A stretch of DNA of 64,000 nt from contig OZ360229.1 of assembly GCA_977017645.1 (NCBI GenBank), positions 37,758,001 through 37,822,000 of the forward strand, given 5' to 3'. The notes under the pieces were generated by a model. The model was given only the letters and a program-made list of their open reading frames with translations. It was not told where the DNA came from and did not search any database. The position numbers were made by a program, and so were the translations under genes. Shown piece by piece: positions 6,340 through 64,000 of the stretch. The DNA is from Torpedo marmorata (lineage: Eukaryota). How positions within the stretch are numbered: position 1 is the first letter of the stretch; every line of letters starts with the position of its first letter.

Positions 6340-6962
6340 TTTTCTATTTCAATATTTTTATTGATTTTATCAAATAAATGATGCATAGGTACATGACAAT
6401 AAAATAAAGTATTAACAAATCTTGTATAACAATACAACTACAAATAATGTTAAAACCTATGTTACATTAAAAGGAAAAAGAAAAAGAAAACCACTATATT
6501 AATTTCTAAATATCAATCCCCTACCTTCGGAGGCTACTGGCTTAACACAAACAATCCACTACTAATAATAAAAAAAAGGGAAAGGTAAACATTGGGTTCA
6601 AAAACCAAAAACTAATTGATCTTACAAATTTTGAAAGTAATTTAGAAAAGAACCCCATAAAGAAACAAAATTAAGATTCATATCAGTAGTAGAACATTGA
6701 ATTTTTTCCAAAGTCAGACATGCCATCATATCAGACAACCATTGATTATGAGTGGGAGGGACAGCATCTTTCCATCTCATTAAAATGGCCCGTCTCGCGA
6801 TAAGGGAGGCGAGGGCAACTACATGGGATTGTGAAGCAGTCAGAATTAAACCAGTTGGCCCACTTATTCCAAAGAGAGCAATAAAAGGTTTTGGAGTCAA
6901 AGCAATATTAAGAACTAAAGACAAGCTACGAAATACTCCTTCCCAATTAATCTTTTAAACTC
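6340..6962 (-). mobile_element. L1-clade LINE 3' end (ORF2 C-terminus and 3' UTR)
   Basis: ORF 6622-6924 reads IARRAILMRWK...PPTHNQWLSDMMACLTLEKI...WGSFLNY, typical of fish L1 ORF2 C-termini. AATAAA and an A-rich tail lie near 6350. Confidence 0.85.
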
Positions 6963-16402: not shown

Positions 16403-18245
16403 GTAAAAACACACCGAAATGCTGGAGGAACTCAGCTGGTCTTTTCAGCGTCCATAGGAGACAAAGATATATTGCCGACATTTCAGGCCTGAGCCCTTCT
16501 TCAAGGAATAAGCAGAATGAGCCAGAAGCAGGAAATCTCAGAAAGTCTCAGAATTCAGACAATTCTGGCTGGGGGAGGAATCCAGACCAACAAAAGGTGT
16601 TAATTGGATATGATAAGGGACAAGGTAAGAATTTATCATGTTTGTGCAAAAGGAGATGGAAGAGAGAGACAGAGCTGGGAGAAGGAGTTTGGGGGTGGGG
16701 GGTGGTTTAACGAAAGCCAGAGAAGTCGATATTAATGCCATCTGGTTGGAGGGTGCCCAGTCGGAAGATGAGGTGTTGTTCCTCCAATTTACAGGTGGTC
16801 TCAGTCTGGCAGTGCATGAGACCATGGACAGACATGTCAGCAAGGGAATGAGATGGAGAATTGAAATGGGTGGCCACTGAGAGAACCACGCTATTGCAGC
16901 GGACAGAGGCAAGGTGCTCAACAAAACCATCTCCCAGTCTGCGTCCAGTCTCTCCGATGTAGAGGAGACCACAACGGGAGCACCGGATGCAGTAGATGAC
17001 CCCTACAGATTCACAAGTGAAATGTTGCTTCACTTGGAAGGACTGTTTGGGGCCCCAAATGGGAGGAGGTGTGGGCGCAAGTGGAGCATCTCCTGTGGTC
17101 AAAGGGGTAGGTCCCAAGGGGCGATTGGTGGGGAGGGAGGAGTAGACAAGGGAATCGCAGAGGTAGCGGTCCCTGCGGAAGGCAGAGAGAGGAGGAGAGG
17201 GGAATATGTGTCTAGTGGTGGGATCACGTAGTATGTGGCAGAAATGGCGGAGGAGGATGTGTTGGATGCAGAGGCTGGTGGGGTGGTAGGTGAGGACAAG
17301 AGAAATCCTGTCCTTGTTGCGCATGGGGGCGTAGGAGGCCAGGGCAGATGTGCGGGTAATGGAAGATATGTGGGTGAGTGCCAAGTTAATGGTGGTAGAG
17401 GGAAAGCCACATTGTTTGAAGAAGGAGGACATCTCTGATGATCTGGCATGGAAGTCCTCATCCTGGATGCAGATGGAGACGGAGGAATTGAGAGAATGGA
17501 ATAGAATCCTTACAGGGGACAGAATGAGAAGAGCTGTAGTCGATGTAGCTGTGGGAGTTCGTTAGTTTGTAGAAGATGTCTGTCGAGAGTTTGTCTCCCG
17601 AGATGGAAACAAAGAGATCGAGGAAAGGGAGAGTGTTACTAGAGATGGACCAAGTGAATTTGAGGTCGGGGTGGAAGTTGGCAGCAAAGTGGATGAATTC
17701 AATGAGTTCATCATGGGTACATGAGGCAGCACCAAAGCAGTCATCAATTTAGCAGAGGAAGAGTTGAGGGGCCTTGCCTTTGTAGGCTTGTAGCATGGAA
17801 TGCTCCATGTAGCCAACAAAAAGGCAGGCATAGCTGGGGCCCATGCGGGCACCCAAGGCTACCCCTTTAATCTGGAGAAAGTGGGATGAGTCAAAGGAGA
17901 AATTATTGAGGGTGAGGACAAGTTCTGCTAGCTGGAGGAGGGTGGTGATGGAGGGGGACTGGTTGGGTCTATTATCCAGAAAGAATCGAAGGGCTTTGAG
18001 GACTTCAGTATGGGGGATAGAGGTGTATAGGGATTGGATATCCATGAGGTGATCGAGATCAGGGAACTGGAAGTTGTTGAAGTGATGGAGGGCATGTGAA
18101 GTGTACCAGATGTAGGTGGGGAGGGATTGGACCAGGGGGGAAAAAACAGAGTTGAGGTAAGCGGAGACCAATTCAGTGGGGCAGGAGCACGCAGACACGA
18201 TGGGTCTGCCGGGACAATTGGGTTTGTGGATCTTGGGTAGGAGTG
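16403..18245 (-). mobile_element. Penelope-like element, 5'-truncated (RT + GIY-YIG endonuclease, frameshifted)
   Basis: RT: LLPKIHKPNCPGRPIVSACSCPTE...DIQSLYTSIPH...GVALGARMGPSYACLF. GIY-YIG: FTCESVGVIYCIRCSRCGLLYIGETGRRL...EH...LGTLQPDGIN. Confidence 0.93.
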
Positions 18246-18695
18246 TGTGTGGTGGTAGAGGTCCACAACAGTTTTGCACACCCTCTTCAGACAACGATCC
18301 CGGTAGATCACATCAATGGCAGGAGGGAGACTCCAATCCATTTCCTTGCAGCAACCATACCACATTGTGATGCTGCCGGCCTGGACACTCTCAATAGAGC
18401 TCTTGTAGAAGGTTGACATGATGGTGGCCGGTAGCCTTGACTGCTTCAGTCTTCTCAGGAAGTGCAGTCACTGTTGCGCCTTCCTGACAAGTGAGGAGAT
18501 GTTATCTGTCCATGATAGGTCACTAGTTAAGTGAACTCCAAGGAACTTGGTGCTCCCCACTCTCTCCACTACAGAGTTGTTGATGGTAGTGGAGGGTGGT
18601 CATTCCTGGTCCTCCTGAAGTCCACGATCAACTCCTTCATCTTGTCCACGTTGAGATTCAGGTTGTTACTCCCGCACCATATCACGAGATTTTCA
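18246..18695 (-). mobile_element. Rex1/Babar-like LINE RT C-terminal fragment
   Basis: Translates to ...KAQQ*LHFLRRLKQSRLPATIMSTFYKSSIESVQAGSITMWYG, characteristic of the Rex1/Babar RT end. Confidence 0.8.
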
Positions 18696-21839: not shown

Positions 21840-22674
21840 GGCGGCGCTGCCGGAGCTGCTGTAATGGCAGCGCTGCCGCTGGTGCTGACCCGCAGGGAGC
21901 GAGGAGCGGAGATACAGCGCTCCCGCGGGGTCCAACCGCCCAGTCACTGCTGTCAGCTCCGCACGGGCTTTGAACGGCCCGTTAAAGGAGCCGACGGTGG
22001 TTTTATTTAAAATCCCACGACCCCGGGGTCTGCGCCCAAGATGGCAGCGCCTCTGATCGGCAGCAGCCACGAGGGGTTGCAGACTCCAGGGGAGCGGAGG
22101 ACTGGCGCAGGGCACCAGAAAACGGGGAGACCATCCCCCGTCTGAGGAGAAGCAGAGGAGACGACCCACAGGACGGTGACCACGGCGGCGGACCAGTGAG
22201 GGGCTCTGCGGCTGAAAGACCAATGCATGCGGCGGGCTGCGGGCGACTCGAGGCGAGGAACCCGTGGAGGCTGTGGGCTGCTGGAGACTGCTGTCGGGAG
22301 ATTCGCGCCGGGCTGCGGACTGCTGGAGACTGGCTCGAACTGGCTTGAGGAGTACCAGGTATCGGAACCGGGATGCGAGGGGGTGCCGAAGGCGCTGAAG
22401 GGTTCCTGACCGTGTCGGAGGTTCGGATCTGGAGCACGAGTTGCCAATGGTTTGGACTGAACTCTGTGTGGCTGCGAATGTGAATCTACGGACACTGGTT
22501 GACTCTGGGGGGACTGTCTTTTGCTTCTCTTTCTCTGACTGTAAGAGGCGCTTCAGGCAATTTCTGCCGATGGTGAATCTGTCTGCCTTACAGCAGGCAA
22601 AAGGAATTTTGTGTAATATGACACTGTTTTATTACACGACAATAAATTGAATCTTGAATCTTGAATCTTGAATC
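21840..22674 (+). mobile_element. GC-rich non-autonomous retroposon, copy 1 (~830 bp)
   Basis: Colinear with the inverted copy at 55393-56202. Internal ccaagatggc (YY1-like core) and 3' acaataaa followed by (gaatctt)n. Confidence 0.85.
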
Positions 22675-35624: not shown

Positions 35625-38178
35625 CGCGTTAGAATTCGTGCACCTGGCCTTAACTTGCATCGAAACTCATGCAATATGGATTACACACCAAATACCCTGC
35701 GGAGATAGCACGAACTCGCCTGGTAGCAAACACCCTTAAACTAGGTTAGCGGTGAAACTCACCTGTATAAAAGACCGATTGTTATATAAAGCTATCAGGT
35801 TGCCTTGTCGGCAGAATTGCGCCTTTCAATGAAAAACTTTTTGTAAGATAATAATATCTTCACTGGCCGTTTTGCCAACGTTCTGTCTATTTACGAATTT
35901 AAAAGCCTGGGAACGTCCTCGTTGAATCTAGATACAATTTAATTGTATTCAGTTAAAAAAAAAATTATAAATGACACACATACTGAAAGCATTTAAAACT
36001 GATATCTGCAAGAAACGTGTTCAATCGCGCAAAGCATCACGTTATGTTTTGGAAGGTTATTAATTTTATACCTTCCTAGAAATCCACTAGTCTGATACCT
36101 GGCCCACCTGTAATAAAATTGACTTAAAGTCCCAGGACTTTGGTGGGAACAGTGAAGGGGGGTGGGGGGGGGGTAATGGGGGTGGGGGAGGGAGAAATAT
36201 TTTTGAAAATGTAAAAATTACAAACAAGTTAGATTTAGATATCATAAATTTGTATGTAAATATCAATTATGAAAATTTAAAATAATCTCGTTCGTTTGCT
36301 CACTTCATTAGATGGATTGAAATAAAATAATTTTGGCACTGGCATTCACAAAGTGAAGATCGCGTTACAAAAATAATGTAACATCGCCAAAATCCATGAG
36401 GAAATATATTACTTCGGCGCACTGTATGCAACTAGGAAGGGAAACTGAACAGATTCAACCAAAGAAAAATAGGAATTGCATATTATCGAAAAGTAGCGTA
36501 AATAACAGAGAGAGGTTGCCCTAAATAAGGCGTTTATTTTTTCCAATCTCATCACAATCCACGTTAAGCGGCCACTTTGAGACCGATACTCTTTCTTTTC
36601 GCCGAATGCCCAAGTCTACGGCAAACGATTCCTCTCCATTTTTTGTTTACTGTTCTGATTTTTTTTCCCCTTTAAACGCTACACAAACGTCCAACGCGCG
36701 GAGTTAGTCAGGCGAGTTGTGTTTACAAAGCCTATAATTATATAAAAAAAAGCTTTCAGTGGAACAATCCGCCGAGACCAAGCAGAACAGATCTCGTCAG
36801 TACTGGAGCCCAGGGAGAGACTGTACAGTACTCAGTGATACGTTCATCTTAAATCGTTCTTGATTTTATTTGAGGGAACTCATCCGCGCAGAACGAATTC
36901 AAACGGCGAGCTCTGCCTTAAAACCTTTCATGTGTTATATTAATAAAATAGTGTAGTGTTTATGGTTAACTCGAGTAAAGGCGGAAACCGAATAATAGCA
37001 CTCAATGTAGCACTTGGATTTATTTTTAATTCTGAGATTTTTTGTCTTTTATCAATGAAATTGAAACTGAAAAATTCCATAAGGTTGTAATTTTGTAATT
37101 ACCAGAAGTGCACCATTGTGTATCTTACTCAATGTTTAAAGCATATACTGTATGACGCGCCATTAAGTTTGTCAGTTTCATTTTGATTTATCGAAAGAGG
37201 CAGCCATTACAATAAATAAACGGATCTGCAACTCTACAGCATGGATTTTCCATTCACCCGGCCAAGTAAATATGTGTGCTTTAAATATGTAGTCTTAGGT
37301 ACAGGAGGTGCTGTAAGAGTTGTCCGTATGCGGCATCCAAGCCCAACGCTATTTAGTGAAACTTGTCACCTTCTGCCAAGATCCCCCAGCCATAGTTAAA
37401 ATATGAACCAATAACTGGTACAAATCCTTTATACAGATAAGAACAAAGGATGTGGGGAGTGGACCAAACGGCGCACCGCACGTGTGACAATGATGAACCG
37501 GCTCTATTAATAAAACGCTACCTTTTCTTCGTTTAACTAAGTTTCTATTTCTGTCCAAACTAGATTATTGTCAGCAGGGTAGGATTCCCATCATCGTATA
37601 ATACACCACCCTGGCCTTGTCCTTCAAATGGCATCTCGGTTATGCAGATTTTATTTGAAAATGTGTATCATTTAATAATACAAATGTGTTTATCCTCCGC
37701 TAAAAACGGTTGATTTCAAAATCAATTTACAAAATAAACAAAACATTCAGGTTCTAGTAGGTTGAGTTAAGGCACAAATTTAAAAAAAGATTCAACCGAA
37801 TGCACTGTTTTCCATATCATAATAATTGAGAGAGTTCGCTGTTGTCTAATATTACATCTTTTCCGATTGGCGTGTTGGTCTAAACACCGTGTCACCGTTT
37901 GCAAGCAATAATGTTGCCGTCTCTTCCTATGTCCAATGTGAGGTTGCCACGGGGAGACCGACAGCGAGTACTAAACTAATCAGTTCATTGAAAACTTCTC
38001 ACATAAGTGAGCTGCCGTTATTTCTTTTGATTTCTATACGTAAAAAAATACCCTAGAAATGTCGGAAATAACGTTAATTTTCTATTTGTATTCCTTAAAG
38101 TCGGTTTCTTTCATTCAAAAAACTATCACAATTTTCCTGGAACGAGTCGGTCCGGTCGCGCGCGCTTCTCTGTGTTAC

Positions 38179-38640
38179 CTGCACATCGTCCAGCCCGTGG
38201 TGATTGAGAGCGTGGAGTGCGAGCGTGTCAACCAGCCCATGGTTGGAGTCAAGGCCGTGGCCGGAGTGGAGAAGCACGTCAGGCCGCCGGATCCCATGGT
38301 AATCCCGACGGTGGTCAAGACTTGACAACTGAGACAGACCCCGGGGTTGGTGCAGAATACCCTGCTCGGCCGCCACCTCCTGGCGTTGCCTCTGTTGCCA
38401 CGGGTGCTGCTGTGGCTGGTGCAGGGGGCTAGTCAGGGAGTAAGGATCGTTGACGTGAGCGTAGGGTTCCTGGCTCTGAGGATAGGGCAGGGGCTGGTAG
38501 GGCGGCGGGAAATAAGGCGGCTGGAAATCCGAAGAAGGGGTATGCGAGAGCGGCGGGGCAGTGGAGTAAGGCACTTGGCTCATCGAGCCGAGCTGGGCGA
38601 GGCGGGCGCTGTGACTGCCGTTCATTCCATCGTGCCGATC
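38179..38640 (-). CDS. TFAP2B: TFAP2B exon 2 (462 nt; proline/glutamine-rich activation region with PY motif)
   Basis: Acceptor ctctcgcag|GAT and donor CAG|gtaac. Translation DRHDG...[26 protein letters not shown]...[16 protein letters not shown]...RRPDVLLHS...GLDDVQ. The [14 protein letters not shown] and RRPDVLLHS motifs fit the beta paralog better than alpha or epsilon. Confidence 0.96.
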
Positions 38641-50964: not shown

Positions 50965-52440
50965 TATATTTATTAATCCTATGTCCATTGATTCTCTTAA
51001 TATCTAAAAACAGACATCTAAAAACCTATCTATCTCACTCCTTAATATACTCAGCATCAGCCTCCAGAGCCTCCTTGGGACAGAATTCTCAATGTTCAAT
51101 ACCTATTCCTTAGTTTGAGATGGTGTTTTCTAGTCCAATACACCCATCCTGAAGAAATATCAACTCCAAATTGATCCTGTCATGCTCCATAAGAATTCTG
51201 TGAATTTCAATGAGATCCTTTTGTTTATAAAAAATGAGAAATGGAGTAGAGACTCAGTCTGCTTAGTCTTGCAGATAATCAAGTAATCTGCAGATGCTGG
51301 GGTCTAATGCAGTACACAAATGTGCTGAAGAAACTCAGCAGCTAATGCAGCATCCACGGAAAGCAAAAGGCAGTCGACATTGACTGCCTTTTACTTTCCA
51401 TGGATGCTGCATGACCTGCTGAGTTTCTCCAACACTTTTGTGTACTGCTTAGTCTTGCCGCTGACTCAAACTTGCCATCTCAGGAATTAAACAGGTGAAC
51501 CTTTGATGCACTCTTTCTATTGCCGGTATCTCATTCCTTAGGTAAGCAAACTAGACCTTCCACCATATTCCAGCTGTATTCTAACCAGAATTCCATGTAA
51601 TTGGAGCTAGACATCTCTACTTTTATATTCAAATCCTCTTGCAATAAAGATCAATATGCATCTTGCTGTCCCAATTTCTTACCTGTATATTAACATCCTG
51701 GTCCATTCAAATACCAATATCTCTGAGTCCTTCACTCTTTAAAAAATACTCTTCATTTCTGCTTATTTTCTGCCAAACTGAGCCTCACACTTTCCCCCAT
51801 ATTCCAGTTTGTCCTTGTCCATTTGTTCAACCTGAACATATTGTCCCTCCATCATCCTTTTAGTCCCCTTTGTTGAATAGCATATCATCATCAGCAGATG
51901 AATAAATCACACTTGATCTCCTTATGACTCAATGTATTTATTAATCCTTTGTCTTAAGCTTGTGAATAGCTGGGCTACGGCACCAATTACTTGGGCTTCC
52001 AGCCTGAAAATGGTATTTGTATTCCCACTATTTTCTGGCTGCTGACCAATCCTCAACCTAGACCCACCAAACCACCCACCAAAACCACACTTTGTTTAAT
52101 AACCTCTTATCTAGTATCTTATCAAAGACTTACTGAAAGCCCCAAAACATTTCATCAATGGGTTCTCCCTTTTTCATTCTGCGAGTCATGCCAAAAATTC
52201 CAATGGATTTGTCAAATGCTATTTCCCCTTATATAAATCCATATGACTTTTACCCAATCATTATTATTATCTGTGCCCCATAACCAGTTCTATATTTATT
52301 TATTCCAGCATTTTCTGCAGTGTTAGTACTAGGTTAATTGATTCCATATTTTCATGATTTATCTCACCTTTTCATAAATCATTGGCCTATAGTTGCAACT
52401 CTGTGGGAACTTTTCCAGAAATAATGGGATGTTGTTAATG
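50965..52440 (-). mobile_element. Degraded CR1 ORF2/3' remnant
   Basis: Reverse complement carries CR1 RT motifs (atctgctgatgatg = ADD-like; ttgacaaatcc; tttgataaga). Confidence 0.65.
51273..51448. mobile_element. Palindromic Penelope-terminus-derived element with 14-bp flanking duplication
   Basis: Inverted arms at ~51309-51377 and ~51380-51448. Direct repeat ctgcttagtcttgc at 51259-51272 and 51445-51458. Confidence 0.85.
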
Positions 52441-52879: not shown

Positions 52880-53185
52880 AATGGCCCAAAGTAAGAGTGG
52901 GACTGAGACTTTTGCTCGAGAGGCTTCAGCAAGAGGAGGCTTCACAGGGAACCATGTATGACCCTTAATCCTTCCTCTTTAAACTACTCAGACAGACTAA
53001 TTGGTTAGTGAGTTTGTAGTTGAGACTTAAATGAGACAACAGAAATAAAACAAAAATACACCATGTTACAAGTACCAGTAATTAAATAAAGTAGGGATGT
53101 AGGATCAGATGATGTGCTGTAGCTGCATGATGTGGGAGCTGGTGGACCCCATTGTGGTTCCTGGTGACCACATCTGCGGCAAGTA
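52880..53185 (+). mobile_element. CR1 5' UTR/ORF1 start remnant
   Basis: MCCSCMMWELVDPIVVPGDHICGK resembles the zinc-finger N-terminus of CR1 ORF1. Confidence 0.55.
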
Positions 53186-53350
53186 TTATTTATTTCTAAC
53201 TGAGGGAAGAATTCAGAAATCAGAGGTACATACAAGTTAGACTGCAGAGTTGATTTCCTTCCATTAAGGACAACAGTGAATCAAATGGTCTTTTCTGACT
53301 ATCTGGTTGTTACATGGTCACCAATATTGATACTAGCTTTTTATTACAAA

Positions 53351-53854
53351 CTAGCAGGATATGCGGCGTTGCCCGAGCTTTGCTCCACAATGTTGGCATA
53401 CCTCTGACATGGAGCCAATTACAATTGCATTAATGGAAGAATACTCAATGTCAACTAAGTAATTGAATGCAGCATTTATTAGCAGGTTGGCTGTAGTAAA
53501 TGGTGCTGCCCTTCGGCTGGTGGCTTTTGTTCGCATTGCTCGGAGTCTTGCTTGTTCTTCCTCAGCAGACTCTTGTTGTCTGCTCATGGAATGCCTGGCG
53601 GCATCAGCACTGAGGCGGGCTTGGTGTTGTTCCTCAGTTTCCTGCTGCCTGCTCCTTGTTTGTCTGGAGGTCTGAGCACTGAGGCAGGCCTGGTGTTGCT
53701 GTTCTGTTTCCTGCTGCCTGCTCCTTGCATGTCTGGAAGCATCAACAGTGAGGCGAGACTGATGTTCCTCTGCTATCTCTTGCTTTCTCCTTTGTCTAAC
53801 TCTACGGGCTTGTGAAGAGCTTCTGCCAATGTTGCTTCGCTTTTTTGGGCCCAT
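53351..53854 (-). CDS. Helitron RepHel N-terminal fragment ORF (167 aa): basic leader, 4 x 23-aa STPR repeats, AAFxY...IGxM..C..C motif
   Basis: MGPKKRSNIGR; repeats EIAEEHQSRL.../ETEQQHQACL.../ETEEQHQARL.../ESAEEEQARL... at exact 23-aa spacing; AAFNYLVDIEY...IVIGSMSEVCQHCGAK. The stop codon is the terminal CTAG. Expression unknown. Confidence 0.75.
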   Translation of the reverse strand: MGPKKRSNIGRSSSQARRVRQRRKQEIAEEHQSRLTVDASRHARSRQQETEQQHQACLSAQTSRQTRSRQQETEEQHQARLSADAARHSMSRQQESAEEEQARLRAMRTKATSRRAAPFTTANLLINAAFNYLVDIEYSSINAIVIGSMSEVCQHCGAKLGQRRISC

Positions 53855-54124
53855 ATTGAACTGGGTTTGGCCACTTGTTTTTATTCTGAATGTACATTGA
53901 TGCACAGCACTGTAACTAATTGAGGTGTCCCTGGTGCAAGTTCAAATTTTTTTTTGGAACTTTTGAACTTCATATGACCTTAAAGGTTAAATTCAATGTG
54001 GTCATGACATTCAGCATTAAATGTCACAATAATTATAGTAAACAGTAATGCAAGTCAGTGCATAGTAAATACTTGTATAATAAACAGTAATGCAAGTCAG
54101 TGGAAGCTGGTCAAAAAACACTTT

Positions 54125-55345
54125 CGATTTAAATTTATTCAATTTTTGCGGCGTGATATATAACTGGTTCAAAAAATTATATTGCACCAGTCTGTATCTC
54201 ACATTTATTGTATTTTTCATACTGTCCCGCATAAGTCGAACCAGTTTTGTTCATTAATTATTATATCCAAGTCTGATTCCCATATCTGTCTAGATCTATG
54301 TAGCCCCTGTTTAGGGGTTCCTTTTTGTAGTAAAAGATAGACTGCTGAAATAAACTTCATTGTGATCCCCTTTCGGATCAAAGTCTCCACTTCACTGCAT
54401 TTCGGTAAGGTCATTAATGGGCCCAATTTATCCCTTAAGTAAGATCTCAACTAGAAATAGCAGAAGAGTGTGTTGTTCATAATACCATACTTCTTTTTTA
54501 ATTGTTCAAATGACATAAGTTGTCCCTGCTCATAACAATCCTCGACACATCTGATCCCTTTCTGGGACCAGGTGTCCAGGATCTCATTATTCATTGTAAA
54601 GGGTATAAGCCTATTTTAAATGTTTTAGATGCGGCAAAGAAATAGGAACGTTTTTACATTTAACCTGGTCATGCCCCAAAGTAAAACCTTTCTGGACAGA
54701 CTTAGGGAAATTCTTAGAACAAATTACAGAAATTCAGTTCCCACAACGCCCAGAATTATTTTTATTGGGCAATATCTCCGGCGTAAGACCTAAGATGAGG
54801 CGTCAAAATTTCAAATAAAATTTGTAGAGATCGCATTGGCGGTGGCCAGGAAATGTATAGCGGTCACATGGAAGTCTGATTCCCATCTAGGTATGACAAG
54901 ATGGAATGAGGAAATGTACAGTTGTGTTCCCCTTGAGAAGATTACCTATAATCTTAGAAATAGATATGATATATTTTTAAATATTTGGACTCCATATTTA
55001 CAATATATGGCTGTAAATCTATAGCTAGGCCCCTCCTCGCCTCCAGGACCTATGTTTATCTCCTCTTTAAAAATCCGAGTAAGCCAAGTAATTTAAGCCT
55101 GCGGGGTGGACGACGAACCTCCAACGTCTTCTTTCCTTTTCTACTTCAACCTCTTCTTATTCCATTCTTCTCCTTTCTTTCTTTTAAGAGGGAACTGGGT
55201 GGGTGGGTTTTCTTTGTTTGTACTCTTGTTGTTTTTTTAGTATAATAGTCAGCATACGTATATTATATTCGATGATGTATTATTTTTGTTATTGATAATA
55301 TGTTTGGCTTTAAAAAAAATACAAATAAAATATTTAAAAAAAAAC
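54125..55345 (+). mobile_element. L1-clade insertion with 5' inversion (inverted 54125-~54617, forward ~54618-55345)
   Basis: Minus segment encodes ...FEQLKKKYGI...WESDL...LVQYNFLNQLYITPQKLNKFKS. Plus segment continues KCFRCGKEIGTFLHLTWSCPKVKPFW...LEKITY...IWTPYL, then AATAAA and polyA. TSD aaaaaacacttt at 54113-54124 and 55339-55350. Confidence 0.9.
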
Positions 55346-55392
55346 ACTTTTGAACTTCATATGACCTTAAAGGTTAAATTCAATGTGGTCAT

Positions 55393-56202
55393 CAAGATCA
55401 AGATTCAATTTATTGTCATAGTAATAAGACAGTGTCATATTCCATGAAATTTCTTTTTGCCTGCTGCAAGGCAGACAGATTCGCCACCGGCAGAAATTGC
55501 CTAAGTGCCTCTAAACATTCCTTACAGTCAGAGAAAGAGAAGCAAAAGAGAGTCCCCCCAGAGTCACCGAGTGTCCATAGATTCGCCTCCAGCGCTTCCG
55601 CAGCCACACAGAGTCCAGTCCAAACGATCGGCAACCCGAGCTCCAGATCCGAACCTCCGACACAGTCAGGTCGCCCTTGGCACCCCCTCTCATCCCGGTT
55701 CCGATACCTGGTACTCCTCCAGCCAGTTCGAGCCAGCCTCCAGCAGTCCGCAGCCCGGCGTGAGTCCCCTGATAGCAGTCTCCAGCAGCCCACAGCCTCC
55801 GCGGGTTCCTCGCCTCGAGTCGCCAGCAGCCCGCCGCATGCACTGGTCCTTCAGCCTCAGAGCCCCTCACCGGTCCGCCGCCGTGGTCACCGTCCCGTGG
55901 GTCGTCTCCTCCGCTTCTCCTTCTCAGACGGGGGGTGATCTTCCCATCCTCTGGTGCCCTGCCCCAGTCCTCCGCTTCCCCAGAACCTGCAGCCCCTCGT
56001 GGCTGCTGCCAGTTAAAAGGCGCTGCCATCTTGGGCGCAGACCCCGTGGTCGCGGGATCTTAAATAAAACCACCGTCGGCTCCCGTGCGGAACCGATGGC
56101 AGTCGACTGGGCGGCTGGACCCCGCGGGAGCGCTGTATCTCCGCTCCCATGCTCCCCGCGGGACTGCACCAGCGGCCGCTACAGCGGCAGTGCCTCCATT
56201 AC
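55393..56202 (-). mobile_element. GC-rich non-autonomous retroposon, copy 2
   Basis: Reverse complement of 21840-22674 with moderate divergence; tail gacaataaattgaatcttgatcttg. Confidence 0.85.
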
Positions 56203-56584
56203 CTTATCCAGCATCAAATTTTACCCCTACTGAACCTCCTTGGACATTTCTAGAGTGCTCCATATTGATTTGCATGGAGAACAGACAAACAGACATTCAT
56301 GCACAAATATATATTAGAAGATAGATTTGTTTAACAAACTGAATTAAACGTTGAATTCTTATCTCTGGATTATATCCTTCAGATCATACATTCTAAGAAT
56401 GCAGGTTTTGTACCTCAACTGACTAGAATACTTAGGAAACAATATTTATCATTTTTCTAAAAAACATAGAACCGTAGTAAAACAACACCTGGTATACTGC
56501 CCACAGATCTGCTCTCCCTACCCAAGGGAAGATGTGTTTGTGATCAAGCAAATGTAACAAAGGTTCTGTTTCTTGATTTCAGTG

Positions 56585-57025
56585 ATGAAATGAATCCTTT
56601 GAGGAGAGATTAAGCAGACTAGGCCTGTACTCTAACACTTAGAAGAATGAAAAATGATCTCACTGAAACATATAAAGTTCTTAAAAGTTCTTTTAGGGAT
56701 TTACTAGATAGATGGAGGAATAATGTTTCTCCTGGCTGAATTGTCCAGGTGCAGGATGTGCAGTCTCAAAATAAGAGTTTGGTTATCTGGGCTGAGATGA
56801 AAATAAATTTCTTCAATAAAGTGAATTCTTTACTCAAGAGGGCTATTGGGATAAGTCATTGAGTATGTTTAAGAAAAAGAGTGACAAATTTTTGTACAGA
56901 GAAAATATGAGATTATTACAGGCAAGTGGTGCAAATGTAAAATATCAATCATGATCATAATGAAAAATGGAGCAAGTGTGGAGAACTGAATGGCCCTTTC
57001 CTGCTTCTACTTCTTACATGCTTTT
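56585..57025 (+). mobile_element. Degraded CR1 3' fragment
   Basis: tttgaggagagattaagcagactaggcctgtactct...tagaagaatga...tgatctcactgaaacatataaa...gaatggccctttcctgcttct. Confidence 0.8.
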
Positions 57026-58711
57026 GTACCTATCCCACCACGAAAGCACCAAACACAGCATTATCCATGTCAAGATCATCTAATTAATACAGATTGCACC
57101 CATCTCACTGGATTCTTGTTGAATACCAACAGAGGAAATGAAATGCTGTGCATTAAGTTGCTGACCTAAATTTGAAATATTACATCACAAATGACTACAA
57201 GGAATCCCTTTCAAAAAAACAAAATACCTTCACTGTCACTTGGTTTTACGTGAATATTACGGGGAAAGCTCCTAATCCTATTAATGTCATCATATTTATC
57301 AAAATTAAAGTTCAGAAACATAATTTCCCTGCCCACGTAATGTGAATGTGATAATTAGTTATTGTTTTCAAGGTTACGAAAAATCAATAATACATACTCT
57401 TTTAAGGACTTTACAAAATAAAATAAATTAATATTCAGCCAAAAGTCTCTAACAGAATTTCAACCCTCCAAGAACAACTTTTAGAGAACATGATAAAGAC
57501 TAATATGATTGCAAGTTAAGATTTCCATCGGTATAAATTTGTTGGAGCTAAAGTTCATTCTTCTCAAGATCACAATGTTACCCATTTATGAACACTAGGT
57601 GGCATCTTATATTGCTTTGAAGAAAAATATATTTGGAAATATAATTTTAGAAATATTTGATTCTGTTTTATTAATCATTTTGTGTTCACTTCGCTTGACA
57701 GTGGAAATTACATGAGCACAATACATTCTCTTGCACTTTTCTTGTGAGGTATCAGAAGATTAAATGAAAATGATCTGTCAACCTTCTGAGCCAGAAATGT
57801 TGCAGGCAGTCATAGAAGAAATAAGATGAGACAATGAAATGGTTGGCAGGTCAGGCCCGCAGGGTATGGGTTCTTGGCAGGAGAGTGTAGCTTTAGGGTG
57901 GGGTGTGGGAGCTTTTGTGAAACTAAGGCAGAAATCACATAGGGTGGTGTTTGGTCAAATTTCCAGAATGGTGTAATTTGATCTAAAAATTATAACAAAA
58001 CATGTTCCACTCCAAGATGAGCAATTTTCAGAAACATAGCTACCTCATTCAACTGATAATCAGCCTCAACAACAACAATCTCATCATGTGATCGCAATGT
58101 CTTTCCTCCTCCCCAAAAGCTCACCACCCTGTTACACCTCTTCCTCTCCTTTTTTCCCACAGCTCAGCTTCCCACCTGTGGCTCAACTCCCCAACAAGCA
58201 GCAAGTCAATGAGGTTGGTTTCCTGTCATTCAGATTGACTGTCAGTGGAGACTTTTGAATTTTTTTTTTTAAAAGAGAGTTTTGTGTCTATTTTGACAGA
58301 ATTTCCAGGAAATCCATTACACCTAGTGTTTCCCACCCAGAAATCCTACTTACTTTCTTGTAAATACCATAGGCCTATATTGTTACAAACAGAAAAAGAT
58401 TGTTCAATTCATTAAATCTGGGTTTGTGTCCTTCTCCACTTGAGCAATTTAATCTTATTCCACTTCTACTTTGTTGCCACCATCATTAATATCCATTTGT
58501 TTGAAACAACTACTAGTAGCTATTGTTTTTTAAAAGTCAGATCTAAAAAAAATACATATTATGGGTAATTCCTCATTCATATTGTTCTTAAAGAAATGTT
58601 TGCCACCCACTCCTCATGTGATTAATTTAAATCTGCAATGTTTTTATCACATTCTTGCTGACTAAAAGAAATAATCTTTATTTGTTTAATTTTTAATCTT
58701 TTTCAACCCAG

Positions 58712-60602
58712 AAATGGACACTATGTTAAGAAGAGAACTACAGATGGAGTTAGCAGACTCTATGTTTTGGACTGATAGTACATCAGTACTTAAATACATT
58801 AATAACAAAACCACAAGGTTTCGTACCTTTGTGGCTAACAGAATTAATGAAATTGGAAAGGTTTCTCATGCTAATCAATGGAGATATGTTAAATCAGTGG
58901 ATAATACAGCTGATATGACTTCACGAGGATTAAAAGTTCAATCTTTTCTGAAAGAAGCCAACACTTGGGTGTTCGGTCCTCAATTTCTTTTGCGATCTCA
59001 AGAAGAATGGCCTCTAAATCCGGAAGATTTAAAAGTAATTTCAATGGAGGATCCTGAAATCCAAAGCACTAATGTAAATACTATTCAAATGTCTAATGAA
59101 AATGATCCAATTACTCAATTAATTTGCAGCCACTCTTCATGGTTTCGTTTGAAAAAGGCAGAAGCATGGATTCTTAGATTAAAAACTATGCTTTTAAATC
59201 GTATTAAGAAAAGGAACCAGACTCAAAAGAGCCATTGCCTAACAGTTGATGAATTAGCAAATAATGAATTGGAGATAATTCGTTTTTGTCAGAAAAGGGC
59301 ATTTGATAACGAGATATCAAAAGTGAAGAAGAACCAGAATGTTACAAAAACAAGTCGTATTTACAAGCTAAATCCTATTCTGGCCAATGATGTATTGAGA
59401 GTAGGAGGAAGATTGGAAAAAGCAATAATGCCAAAAGAAGTGAAACATCCAATTATATTAGCTGAAGAATTTCATATTTCTGATTTGATTGTTCCACATA
59501 TACACGAGAAAATAGGTCACGGTGGTTGTAATCACGTGTTATGAGAGCTACGTCAGAAATATTGGATACTTGGTGCTACAACATTAATCAAAAGAATTAT
59601 ATCGAAATGTATTAATTGTCGACATGCAAATGCTAGACCAGGACAACAACAAATGGCAGATTTGCCACAGGACAGAGTTACATCTGATGAACCCCCATTT
59701 ACATACGTGGGAGTTGATTATTTCAGTCCTTTACAAGTAAAGCGAGGAAGAAGTATAGAAAAACGATATGGAGCTATTTTTACTTGTTTGACTACAAGAG
59801 CAATTCATATTGAAGTAGCGTCATCGCTTGATGCAGACTCTTTTATCAATGTTCTTCGACGTTTTATAGCCAGATGTGGTCAAGTAAAGGAATTATGTTC
59901 TGATAATGGATCTAACTTTATAGGAGCTCAATTAGAATTACGAAAAGCAATTCAAAAATGGAATCAACATCAAATTCATGATTCATTACTTCAGAAAGAA
60001 ATTAATTGGATATTTAACCCACCTACAGGATCACATCATGGAGGTGTGTGGGAAAGAATGATTAGATCATTTAGAAAAATTCTTAATTCCATTTTGAATA
60101 GTCAAATACTCAATGATGACAATCTTCAAACAGTTTTGTGTGAAATTGAAGCTATTTTAAATAGTCATCCAATTACAAAAATTTCAGTCGATTCGAATGA
60201 CAGAGGCACTCACACCAAATCATCTCCTGCTTCTTAAATCTAAACTTTCGATGCCTCCAGGTCAATTTCAAAAAGAAGATATTTATGCCAGACGCAGATG
60301 GAAACAAGTGCAATTTATTGCAGATTTGTTTTGGAAAAGATGGATTAAAGAATATCTTTCATTATTACAAGAACGACAAAAATGGTCAAAAAATAAAACG
60401 CAATTTTGTATGTGGAGATATTGTAATTATCATGGACGATTCTTCACCAAGAAATTCTTAGTTGCTGGGGAGAATTGTGGATACAGTTCCAGACAAGAAA
60501 GGATTAATTCGGCAAGTGCGGATTAAAACCAAGACTGGTTACTTAAATAGACCTATTACTAAAATCTGTCTTTTACAAGAAGCAGAAAGTTTTGATTCTT
60601 AA
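58712..60602 (+). mobile_element. BEL/Pao LTR-retrotransposon pol remnant (RNase H end + integrase), pseudogenised
   Basis: FWTDSTSVL...FVANRI...WRYV...NTADMTSRG; LRVGGRL; MADLPQDRV...PFTYVGVDYF...IFTCLTTRAIHIE...SDNGSNF...GGVWERMI; LTPNHLLL...[10 protein letters not shown]. Stop at 59542 and frameshifts near 60200 and 60390; no LTR seen. Confidence 0.93.
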
Positions 60603-61631: not shown

Positions 61632-63555
61632 GGGGACGTGTAGAGTCATGAAGTAGAAATCTGACCCTCCCGGGAATTCGTTTTAAAAGTGCCAAATAAG
61701 TAAAGTACTTTCAACCAAATATAAAAAAAACTGCTCAAAAACTATTCTAGAATGATTTTATAACGTCACCTAAAAAACCAAGAAAGGTCGCTGGCCTGTT
61801 GGGAACGCAAAGTGAACAACAACAGCAACAAGAAAGAAGGCCTACTGTTTCGATGGATCCGGGAGTTGAGGTGAGAGCTCTTTCCCGGCCGAAGCAGGCC
61901 CCTACAGGGGCTGTTAGACGCTCTACAGTGACATCACAGTAGTTTCTGCAAGCAGTAGATGACGAAGACGAAGAAGCGGAACAGCGCATGCGCGAGAAGC
62001 TGCGCATGTGCAGATCACAAGAAATTCAAAATGTTAGCGAACAAGACACCACATCTCAGGCCAACGACGAAGAAGTGGAGGAAGAAGAAGAAGTAATAAC
62101 TCCTAAAGTTTCCAAAGATAAAGGTAGGAAACCCAAGCTGAAAGGAGAAGAAAAATATACATCTGTACAATTAATGAAAGAACTAAGAGAGATGAGAGCA
62201 GAAATGAAAGTAGAAAGGAAGAAATATTTTGATATGGTAATAAAAGTGCAAAATAAATTGGACAAAGTTGATGATAAAGTTAAACATCTGGAGACCGAAA
62301 TGGAAGAAGTACGAGATAGAATGGAACATATGGAAAATAATACAGATGCATGGGTTAATGAAAGAAAACAACTCTAGGAAAAAATAGACTTATTAGAAAA
62401 CTTCAGTAGACGAAATAATATTAAAATTGTTGGCTTCAAAGAAGGTGAAGAAGGTGAAGATCCTATAAAGTTTTTTCAAGATTGGATCCCGCAAGATCTG
62501 GAAATAGAAAATATGGATAAACCTATTGAAATTGAAAGAGTACACAGAGCACTGAGACCACGGCCACCACCAGATCAAAAACCAAGATCAATATTGATAA
62601 AATGTCTTCGTTACCAAGATAGAGAGAAAATATTAGCAGCAGTGGTACAAAGAGCTAAAGCGGGAAAAGACCCACTGGAATCTGGTGGGAAAAAAGATTT
62701 TCTTTTATCCAGACATAAGTTTTAAGTTGTTGAAAAGAAGAAAATAATTTAACAATGTGAAGCACGAGCTGTGGAAAAAAGGTTATAGATTTTATCTATG
62801 ACATCCTGCTACTCTGAATATTTTGTATCACAAGGGGAAAATAAATTTTTAACAAATTATGTAGGTACAGAAGAATATGTGAACACATTACCCGATAACC
62901 GACAGGTGGACGACCAGCAGGCGGAATTGTAAAAGTTCATGATTAATAATGATGTTAAAGATGGATTTATATTTGGTGAACATCCAGGGGGTTGGAGGGG
63001 AAATGGACTGACTACAATGGAATCATGTGTGTATTTGTGGCAGAAGCCACAACCTGTAAAATGGGGGGGGGGGGGGGTGTAGTGTTGCGTATTATTTGTT
63101 CCGCTTCTTCGTCTTCTATTGTTCTATATATAATTTTTTTTCTTTTCTTTTCACCTGGATGGTCGGGGAGGACGCACTGTAACATGGTATATTATAAATA
63201 TAGGATTCTCAGGGAGATGCGAGGAGAGAGGTGAGGGGGAAATATCATAGACATGAATCAAATTTATCAATGAGTAATGCATTACATTTTTAAAGTTTTA
63301 ATGTTAATGGGCTAAATGGACCAGTGAAGAGAAAAATAATATTGACATATATTAAGAAAATGAAAGCAGACATAACTTTTTTGCAAGAGACCCATTTAAC
63401 TGAGACAGAGCATCAGAAATTGGGTAGGATATGTTACAGCTTCTTCATTTAATTCAAAAGCAAGAGGGGTGGCAATCTTGATAAAGTAAACTCTTCCGGT
63501 CAAGATACAGAATATAATAACTGACCCTACAGGGAGATATGTGGTAGTACACTGT
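61632..63555 (+). mobile_element. L1-clade LINE 5' part: degraded ORF1 and start of ORF2 (APE endonuclease)
   Basis: ORF1 coiled coil then LENFSRRNNIKIVG...IEIERVHR...PRSILIKCLRYQDREKIL. ORF2 SFNVNGLNGPVKRK...ADITFLQETHL from ~63270. Several stops and frameshifts. Confidence 0.92.
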
Positions 63556-64000
63556 ATTTTTCTTTTTTAAATCTCTTTATTAATTCCATAAAATCATGGA
63601 TATAACAGTTCATTCACTATATACGTTTACAAAGAAAAGCATTATCACATGTTCCATTACTCCATCCATAACAGAGTATACATTACAGATATATATCAAT
63701 TTTTTTTCTTTACAATTTAGTATTATAATACCAATAGATATAAAAAGAACCAAGCCACAAAAAAAAGATAACATAGTAATGTAATCGTAATACATTTTTT
63801 TATAAAAGCTAAAGCACTCTAAACTAGCCTACCACCAACCCCCACATCAGAATTGCACTGACCTGTAGAGATAATATAACTTCAAAGCATGAGGAATCAT
63901 AAACTCTGATAATAGTCCATAAAGGAACCCCAACTATTAGTAAATTTTAGGTTTAATTTAATATTTGATCATCTAATTTTTTCTAATGTTAAGTAGGATA
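63556..64000 (-). mobile_element. Second L1 3' end inserted antisense into the L1 ORF2 (runs off window)
   Basis: Minus strand SYLTLEKIR...WGSFMDYYQSL*, AATAAA and an A-rich tail at ~63556-63585. Related to 6340-6962. Confidence 0.8.

What the first reader, a model, noticed from the sequence alone, without database searches (positions are those of the whole stretch)
54113..55350. Twin-priming (5'-inverted) L1 insertion in a non-mammalian vertebrate
Seen: TSD (aaaaaacacttt), ~490 bp of ORF2 inverted, ~720 bp forward 3' end, polyA, TSD. The inverted part ends at ...KFKS next to the 5' TSD and the forward part resumes at KCFRC, so the two pieces are nearly adjacent in the source RNA with only a few nt lost. 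The nick site is TTTT/GA-like. This is the geometry predicted by twin priming, which has been described mainly for mammalian L1. A clean case in a cartilaginous fish would suggest the mechanism is older or more general.
Basis: partly seen in the sequence, partly recalled or inferred. Interest (0 to 1): 0.72.

Follow-up and report, generated by a model that had tools for sequence, protein, structure and literature searches.

The report
Front-flipped L1 insertion in a skate
A dead 1.2-kb piece of an L1 jumping gene was inserted into a skate genome with its front part flipped, just as human L1 often is, which suggests that this known insertion quirk is not confined to mammals, though one copy cannot say how common it is.

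Summary
The structure is real. A 12-bp duplication (54113, 55339; 15 bp with one mismatch) brackets 493 bp of inverted L1 ORF2 and 721 bp of forward 3' end with a short A tail. The bottom-strand nick reads TTTT/GA. The host is a skate (TFAP2E exon 95-96% identical to three skates). In three related runs, intact L1 contigs pass from the outer end of the inverted piece (54126) to the start of the forward piece (54617). Sister Helitron copies carry the target once. Homologous proteins put about 12 nt between the pieces. This is the twin-priming geometry (about 0.87). The primer-RNA pairing test stayed open: the family's letters in the gap were not obtained, and only a shared GA is seen. No genome was held, so no frequency could be counted. 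The mechanism is known. One zebrafish Nimb-2 inversion in chicken cells is in print; ten searches found no in-vivo non-mammalian vertebrate L1 case, but four key papers could not be opened. The scan noted similar flips before on other DNA (an RTE family, an L1/Tx1-like copy; unchecked). Verdict: a new member of a known kind, moderate interest.

The parts
53351..56325 (-). Host Helitron-like element (5' TC at 56325, 3' CTAG at 53354-53351, inserted between A and T); the L1 and a second element sit inside it
   Evidence: Termini read from the window. X4 contig record 25 joins 56321-56659 to 53122-53345, so the whole element is absent at this locus in organism D (table 8). Helitron terminal rules are recalled; the ORF at 53351-53941 had no Pfam hit.
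54113..54124 (+). 5' copy of the target-site duplication (extends to 54127 with one mismatch at 54125)
   Evidence: family D15
54125..54617 (-). Inverted L1 ORF2 segment, 493 bp; its most downstream codon (Ser of KFKS) abuts the 5' duplication; one stop (54448-54450) and one frameshift (near 54229)
   Evidence: tblastn of homologues; joint 54126 to 54617 on opposite strands in X1, X2, X3
54618..55024 (+). Forward end of ORF2 from the zinc knuckle (KCFRC...HLTWSC) to the stop; one frameshift near 54801-54812. Base 54617 fits both segments
   Evidence: tables 4, 5, 8
55025..55338 (+). L1 3' UTR, AATAAA at 55324-55329, first three A of the tail (55336-55338)
   Evidence: covered by repeat contigs of X1-X3
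55339..55350 (+). 3' copy of the target-site duplication (to 55353 if 15 bp); its six A continue the tail
53959..54005 (+). 47-bp internal repeat of the host element, identical to 55346-55392; host period 161 bp once the L1 is removed. Not part of the duplication
   Evidence: D2; joint 'goes back 161' in X1 and X4
55393..56199 (-). Second, unrelated nested repeat with a short-repeat tail, 42 bp beyond the 3' duplication; sister copy at 21872-22664 (84%). Right end approximate
   Evidence: highest contig depth of the stretch

Best explanation
One L1 insertion event by twin priming. (1, inferred) The L1 endonuclease nicked the bottom strand of a Helitron copy at TTTT/GA and reverse transcription began on the RNA's A tail. 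(2, inferred) The top strand was nicked 12-15 nt further on before the first copy was finished; its 3' end primed the same RNA internally, about 0.73 kb from the 3' end, just upstream of the zinc-knuckle codons. (3, product shown) The first cDNA stopped about 12 nt short of that point (721 nt) and the second ran 493 nt upstream in the opposite direction. (4, inferred) The two cDNAs were joined with one shared base (54617) and the gaps were filled, leaving the duplication. (5, shown) The copy has since decayed by at least about 2% with three reading-frame lesions; it holds no RT or endonuclease sequence and is inert.
For: Exact duplication around the whole insert. Sister Helitron contigs carry the target once: joints 54112-55338 (X1, 2 contigs), 54112-55340 (X1 2, X4 2), 54119-53959, equivalent to 55346 (X1 2, X4 3); X2 and X3 Helitron contigs stop fitting at 54124. 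Intact L1 contigs go from 54126 (minus) to 54617 (plus) in X1 (9 contigs), X2 (1), X3 (1), not in X4. Four codons between the pieces: 70 of 75 motif-bearing homologues among 150; 40 of 41 computable among 60. TTTT/G is one of the three cut sites counted for human L1, and 46% (132/287) of human inverted L1 have the two cDNA ends within 20 bp; germline medians 751 and 571 bp (PMC12016303). Human inverted inserts have 10-20 bp duplications (PMC4245944). No overlap between the pieces (longest shared word 10 nt).
Against: Pairing of the primer end with the RNA is not shown: the family's letters in the gap were cut from the output (table 5c) and five other tries failed. Only GA at 54126-54127 fits both target and L1 (chance about 0.06), behind a mismatch at 54125; if the duplication is 12 bp and the next codon begins with G, strict microhomology is zero, seen in only 28 of 605 human cases (PMC2912911). 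The 12-nt gap is a proxy from proteins 37-69% identical in their best stretch, not from this family. The exact 1226-bp skip is not among the 15 joints shown (319 hidden). No listed record spans the insert's own junctions, and the runs are not the window's individual. The tail is short (3 A beyond the duplication).
Confidence: 0.87

Rival explanations
1. An ordinary 5'-truncated L1 of about 1.23 kb inserted first, and its front 493 bp were inverted later by double-strand-break repair.
For: The copy is old enough to carry at least 2% change and three lesions.
Against: One breakpoint falls on the 5' duplication to within 1-3 bases and leaves it intact; the 12 nt are missing at the end that now touches the duplication. 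No inverted repeat links the two breakpoints among the 25 longest of 30 pairs.
Confidence: 0.05
2. Two different RNA molecules or two separate insertions supplied the two pieces (head-to-head nested insertion, or priming of a second transcript at the top-strand nick).
For: The family is abundant (depths). Priming of a second RNA in opposite orientation is described for snRNA/L1 chimeras (PMC4476161, PMC13174262; passages).
Against: The inverted piece has no 3' end, tail or duplication of its own, and ends about 12 nt from where the forward piece starts; independent pieces would not be adjacent in a 5-7 kb element. Both halves differ from related contigs at similar rates (13 of 493 and 14 of 721 among the rows shown).
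Confidence: 0.04
3. Assembly artefact (fold-back or chimeric read joining two L1 copies).
For: No laid record is listed across the insert's own junctions; no reads of the source animal were available.
Against: An artefact would not give an exact duplication with an L1-type nick, nor match the single-copy empty site in other organisms; there is no palindromic duplication of sequence at the junction.
Confidence: 0.02
4. cDNA snap-back: the first cDNA folded back and copied itself, as seen with R2 proteins in human cells.
For: Snap-back gives antisense sequence at 5' junctions (PMC11371274, passages).
Against: Copying of finished cDNA would duplicate sequence of the forward piece; here the inverted piece lies upstream of it in the RNA with no overlap.
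Confidence: 0.02

Closest known systems
5'-inverted (twin-primed) human L1 insertions (model of Ostertag and Kazazian 2001, paper not held; as described in PMC2912911, PMC12016303, PMC4245944)
   Same: Inverted 5' piece plus forward 3' piece with A tail inside one 12-15 bp duplication; TTTT/G nick; the two cDNA ends within 20 nt; total 1.2 kb and piece lengths near the human germline medians; 1-nt overlap at the inner junction.
   Different: Host is a skate and the element a fish-type L1 (best stretches 37-69% identical to unnamed homologues; named hits are salmonid proteins). Tail is very short. 5' microhomology, present in 95% of human cases, is unresolved here (0 to 3 or more nt).
Single 5'-inverted insert of zebrafish Nimb-2_DR in chicken DT40 cells (PMC4245944, passage in section 12)
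   Same: Non-mammalian LINE inverted in a non-mammalian cell; about 12-bp duplication peak.
   Different: Engineered, cultured cells, Nimb rather than L1 clade, one event. The same paper found no inversion for human L1 in chicken cells and tied inversions to L1 plus human host factors; the skate copy is a natural germ-line insertion.
Zebrafish L1 junction surveys by nested-transposon analysis (Ichiyanagi and Okada 2006, 2008; Ichiyanagi et al. 2007; not held; seen only as cited in PMC6007223 and PMC4245944)
   Same: L1 nested in another repeat so that the empty site is known; 13-15 bp duplication peak reported for zebrafish and mammals.
   Different: Whether these papers report or exclude 5' inversions in zebrafish L1 I could not see.

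Membership tests
Twin-primed 5'-inverted L1 | Inverted 5' segment joined to a forward 3' segment that ends in an A tail | tested here: met
   tail short (9 A, 6 shared with the duplication)
Twin-primed 5'-inverted L1 | One 10-20 bp duplication around the whole insert | tested here: met
   12 exact, 14 of 15
Twin-primed 5'-inverted L1 | Single target copy at the empty site | tested here: met
   Sister (paralogous) Helitron contigs in X1 and X4; A-run varies 5-7. Not the same locus in the same species
Twin-primed 5'-inverted L1 | L1 endonuclease site at the first nick | tested here: met
   TTTTTT/GACC; TTTT/G counted as a cut site in PMC12016303
Twin-primed 5'-inverted L1 | Outer end of the inverted piece and start of the forward piece nearly adjacent in one family's RNA | tested here: met
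   Joint 54126-54617 in 3 of 4 runs; 4 codons by homologues
Twin-primed 5'-inverted L1 | Microhomology between the 3' end of the 5' duplication and the RNA at the internal priming site | tested here: inconclusive
   GA at 54126-54127 fits both; base 54125 differs from the target and is not included in the L1 joint; gap letters not obtained
Twin-primed 5'-inverted L1 | Short complementarity at the inner junction of the two cDNAs | tested here: inconclusive
   One shared base, 54617 (X2 record 12 fits the minus strand to 54617; the joint resumes at 54617); within chance
L1 clade (vertebrate L1) | ORF2 C-terminus with CCHC zinc knuckle homologous to proteins that carry RT, APE endonuclease and L1-type ORF1 | tested here: met
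   455 hits at E<=0.001; of 9 long hits scanned, 5 carry RVT_1, 3 endonuclease, 2 Transposase_22, 1 nothing. The window pieces alone hit no Pfam family
L1 clade (vertebrate L1) | RT-based placement in L1 rather than Tx1 | not testable with these tools
   The copy holds no RT and no full-length family member was retrieved
Helitron (host) | 5' TC, 3' CTAG, insertion between A and T without duplication (recalled rule) | tested here: met
   empty orthologous site in X4 record 25
Helitron (host) | Rep/helicase coding sequence | tested here: inconclusive
   ORF 53351-53941 resembles a Rep/helicase N-terminus from recall only; no Pfam hit

The most novel reading that the evidence does not exclude
Twin priming is a routine, ancestral property of vertebrate L1 that predates the split of cartilaginous and bony vertebrates, and skate L1 families produce 5' inversions at a rate comparable to human L1 (about 20-30% of inserts). 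This would contradict the proposal that inversions need human-type host factors, and L1 copies nested in abundant skate Helitrons would give a ready test set with known empty sites.
Probability: 0.4. Interest if true: 0.62.

Novelty: new member of a known kind. Interest (0 to 1): 0.38.

Why it matters
Almost everything written on 5' inversion concerns mammals, and one cell-culture study tied it to L1 plus human host factors because human L1 gave none in chicken cells (PMC4245944). A natural germ-line case in a skate argues that early second-strand nicking and internal priming are properties of the L1 protein shared across jawed vertebrates. That bears on how second-strand cleavage and 5' joining work, still an open step of retrotransposition, and on annotation: such copies are split into two opposite-strand fragments. 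One copy shows possibility, not rate.

Tried and rejected
Genome-wide count of inverted versus truncated copies: no genome held. Within the window, tblastn with 40 homologues of 300 aa or more found one other L1 3' end (6601-6945, minus strand only, another family) and no second inversion; too few to give a rate. No RNA holder listed. The 47-bp repeat at 53959/55346 was considered as a longer duplication and rejected: it lies 154 bp upstream of the left junction and is an internal repeat of the host. X1 record 8 enters the Helitron end by only 28 letters, under the tool's 31-letter rule, so sharing of the Helitron with organism A is not counted. Pfam gave no family for any piece of the insert. 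Look-ups of earlier scan notes by sequence, by place and two by words were empty. Paper searches were swamped by unrelated papers and are weak negatives; one found nothing relevant. No supplements were opened; those of PMC4245944 and PMC2912911 could hold junction lists that bear on the comparison.

Full report
Observation. The 12-mer AAAAAACACTTT occurs exactly twice in the 64-kb window, at 54113 and 55339; 0.05 copies are expected and 0 of 100 shuffles gave two. In register the two copies match for 12 bases, differ at the 13th (C at 54125, T at 55351) and match for two more. Between them, 54125-54617 (493 bp) translates on the minus strand as a stretch of L1 ORF2 ending in LNKFKS next to the left copy, and 54618-55338 (721 bp) translates on the plus strand from KCFRC to a stop at 55022-55024, followed by a 3' UTR, AATAAA at 55324 and nine A, six of which belong to the right copy. 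The bottom strand across the first nick reads TTTTTT/GACC.

Host organism and setting. The AP-2 exon at 38176-38640 (minus) is 95-96% identical to TFAP2E of three skates, 81% to Callorhinchus and 60-77% to the other listed proteins, so the window comes from a skate. The insert lies in a Helitron-like element on the minus strand, 53351-56325, with 5' TC, 3' CTAG and an A/T insertion point (the terminal rule is recalled, and its ORF had no Pfam hit). One contig of run X4 joins 56321-56659 to 53122-53345, so organism D lacks the whole element at this locus (table 8) and the L1 insertion is younger than that split. A second, unrelated repeat is nested at 55393 to about 56199, with an 84% sister at 21872-22664. 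The 47-bp repeat at 53959 and 55346 is internal to the host (period 161 bp), not a longer duplication.

Element identity. The forward zinc-knuckle piece hit 455 proteins at E up to 0.001. Of nine long hits scanned, five carry RVT_1, three an APE-type endonuclease, two the L1 ORF1 domain Transposase_22 and one nothing. With the A tail and the nick site this places the element with vertebrate L1; an RT tree against Tx1 could not be made because the copy has no RT.

Are the two pieces one family and adjacent? No genome was held, so contigs of four public runs (4 of 20 listed; four coded organisms, four studies) were laid on 52900-56700 at 85% likeness. They are not the window's individual: unique flanks differ at 8 of 403 letters in X1 and 35 of 546 in X4. 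A joint from 54126 on one strand to 54617 on the other appears in X1 (9 contigs), X2 (1) and X3 (1) and not in X4. This is what intact copies should show: they run through the inverted piece to its outer end and continue at the start of the forward piece. The letters between were not displayed (193 rows of table 5c hidden). Protein homologues fill in the length: of 150 proteins, 75 bore the motif pair and 70 of these have 13 residues between the proline of YxTP and the first cysteine, where the window has 8 plus 1; of 60 closer proteins, 41 allowed a tblastn estimate and 40 gave four residues, the other a spurious pairing (alignment). These proteins are partly redundant and only 37-69% identical in their best stretch, so about 12 nt is a proxy. 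X2 record 12 fits the minus strand up to 54617 and carries 265 further letters, so base 54617 fits both pieces. Among the difference rows shown, 13 fall in the inverted and 14 in the forward piece (371 rows hidden), a floor of about 2% and no sign of two ages. The copy has a stop at 54448-54450 and frameshifts near 54229 and 54801.

Empty site. Sister Helitron contigs skip the insert: 54112 to 55338 (X1, 2 contigs), 54112 to 55340 (X1 2, X4 2), and 54119 to 53959 (X1 2, X4 3), which equals a jump to 55346 because the two stretches are identical. Helitron contigs of X2 and X3 fit up to 54124 and stop. All show the target once, with an A run of five to seven. The exact 1226-base skip is not among the 15 joints shown (319 hidden). 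These are paralogous sites in other organisms, and no listed record spans the insert's own junctions.

Priming complementarity. This test stayed open. GA at 54126-54127 fits both the L1 and the target (chance about 0.06). The L1 joint stops at 54126, which suggests that the family does not have the window's base at 54125. If the serine codon is TCA (4 of 10 TCN codons elsewhere in the copy; TCC 3, TCT 3), the duplication is 15 bp with at least 3 nt of microhomology and one later substitution. If the source element had the window's base, the duplication is 12 bp and strict microhomology may be zero, since E or D follows in 25 of 38 homologues. I lean to the first (inference, about 60:40), because 577 of 605 human inverted copies have microhomology and about 70% have 2-5 nt (PMC2912911, passages), and the L1 duplication peak is 13-15 bp in zebrafish and mammals (as cited in PMC4245944, and PMC6007223). 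Five attempts to get the family's letters failed (with 20, 26, 38 with 42, 57).

Mechanism. The product is shown; the steps are inferred from the human model. A bottom-strand nick at TTTT/GA primed reverse transcription on the tail; a top-strand nick 12-15 nt away primed the same RNA internally before the first copy finished; the first cDNA stopped about 12 nt short of that site; the second ran 493 nt upstream; the two were joined at one shared base. Confidence 0.87. A later inversion of a truncated copy (0.05) must put one breakpoint on the duplication by chance. Two RNAs or two insertions (0.04) do not explain adjacency. Snap-back (0.02; PMC11371274, passages) predicts overlap, and the longest shared word is 10 nt. 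An assembly artefact (0.02) is not excluded directly but would not make a duplication that matches empty sites elsewhere.

Comparison with what is known. In human data 18-22% of L1 inserts are inverted, 132 of 287 have the two cDNA ends within 20 bp, germ-line medians are 751 and 571 bp, and TTTT/G counts as a cut site (PMC12016303, passages and section 8); 639 of 2068 human and chimpanzee inserts were inverted (PMC2912911). The skate copy is typical by these measures. PMC4245944 (passages, Introduction and Discussion) found inversions only for human L1 in human cells, except one zebrafish Nimb-2 insert in chicken DT40 cells, and proposed dependence on host factors. A review of vertebrate L1 (PMC5381506, term search) and an anole LINE study (PMC5389967) do not discuss inversions in their main text; PMC4476161, PMC13174262, PMC11429677 and PMC7922186 were seen as passages only and gave no non-mammalian case. 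Ten searches found no in-vivo non-mammalian vertebrate L1 inversion; one search listed 40 of 106 papers, three searches were swamped, and the library lacks most subscription papers. Ostertag and Kazazian 2001, Ichiyanagi and Okada 2006 and 2008, Ichiyanagi et al. 2007 and Kojima and Okada 2009 were not held; the zebrafish surveys among them could already settle the point either way. No supplements were opened.

Earlier notes of this scan (unchecked AI notes) describe a flipped RTE LINE with about one in ten long copies flipped (e1-7812926), a flipped L1/Tx1-like copy in another animal (e1-7513827) and a fungal case read as an internal inversion (e1-7146221). They suggest the phenomenon recurs outside mammals but were not tested here and do not enter the score as support.

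Verdict. A real and clean 5'-inverted L1 insertion in a skate, best explained by twin priming. The mechanism is known and the host lineage appears new in the literature I could search. One copy without a rate and with the priming test open: new member of a known kind, interest 0.38. If skate L1 inverts at human-like rates (probability about 0.4), the interest would be about 0.6.

Noticed in passing
window 55393-56199 (-) and 21872-22664 (+): Very abundant 0.8-kb GC-rich repeat with a short tandem tail (7-bp unit in the sister copy); stop-free frames of 140-310 aa that were not searched; inserted into the same Helitron 42 bp from the L1. Family not identified.
   Followed up: partly
window 53351-56325 (-): Helitron-like host with a 161-bp internal repeat and a 69-bp coding repeat (53580-53754); absent at the orthologous site in organism D, so usable as a presence/absence marker among skates.
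   Followed up: partly
window 38176-38640 (-): Coding exon of TFAP2E (AP-2 epsilon); the insert lies about 15 kb upstream of this exon on the gene's strand. No effect on the gene was examined.
   Followed up: partly
window 6601-6954 (-): Short 3' end of a different L1 family, about 25% identical to the best homologue, no inverted partner found.
   Followed up: partly
window 61943-64000 (+): Decayed L1-type ORF1 and start of an endonuclease-like frame, apparently breaking off; whether it belongs to the same family could not be compared.
   Followed up: no
window 58690-60526 (+): Decayed integrase-region fragments (weak rve and H2C2 hits, below curated cut-offs) of an LTR-type element; described only.
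   Followed up: no
window 16707-18312 (-): Broken RT (weak RVT_1 hit) followed by a frame that looks like a GIY-YIG nuclease from recall, suggesting a Penelope-like element.
   Followed up: no
window 51304-51452: 150-bp imperfect palindrome (87%), possibly a small inverted-repeat element.
   Followed up: no
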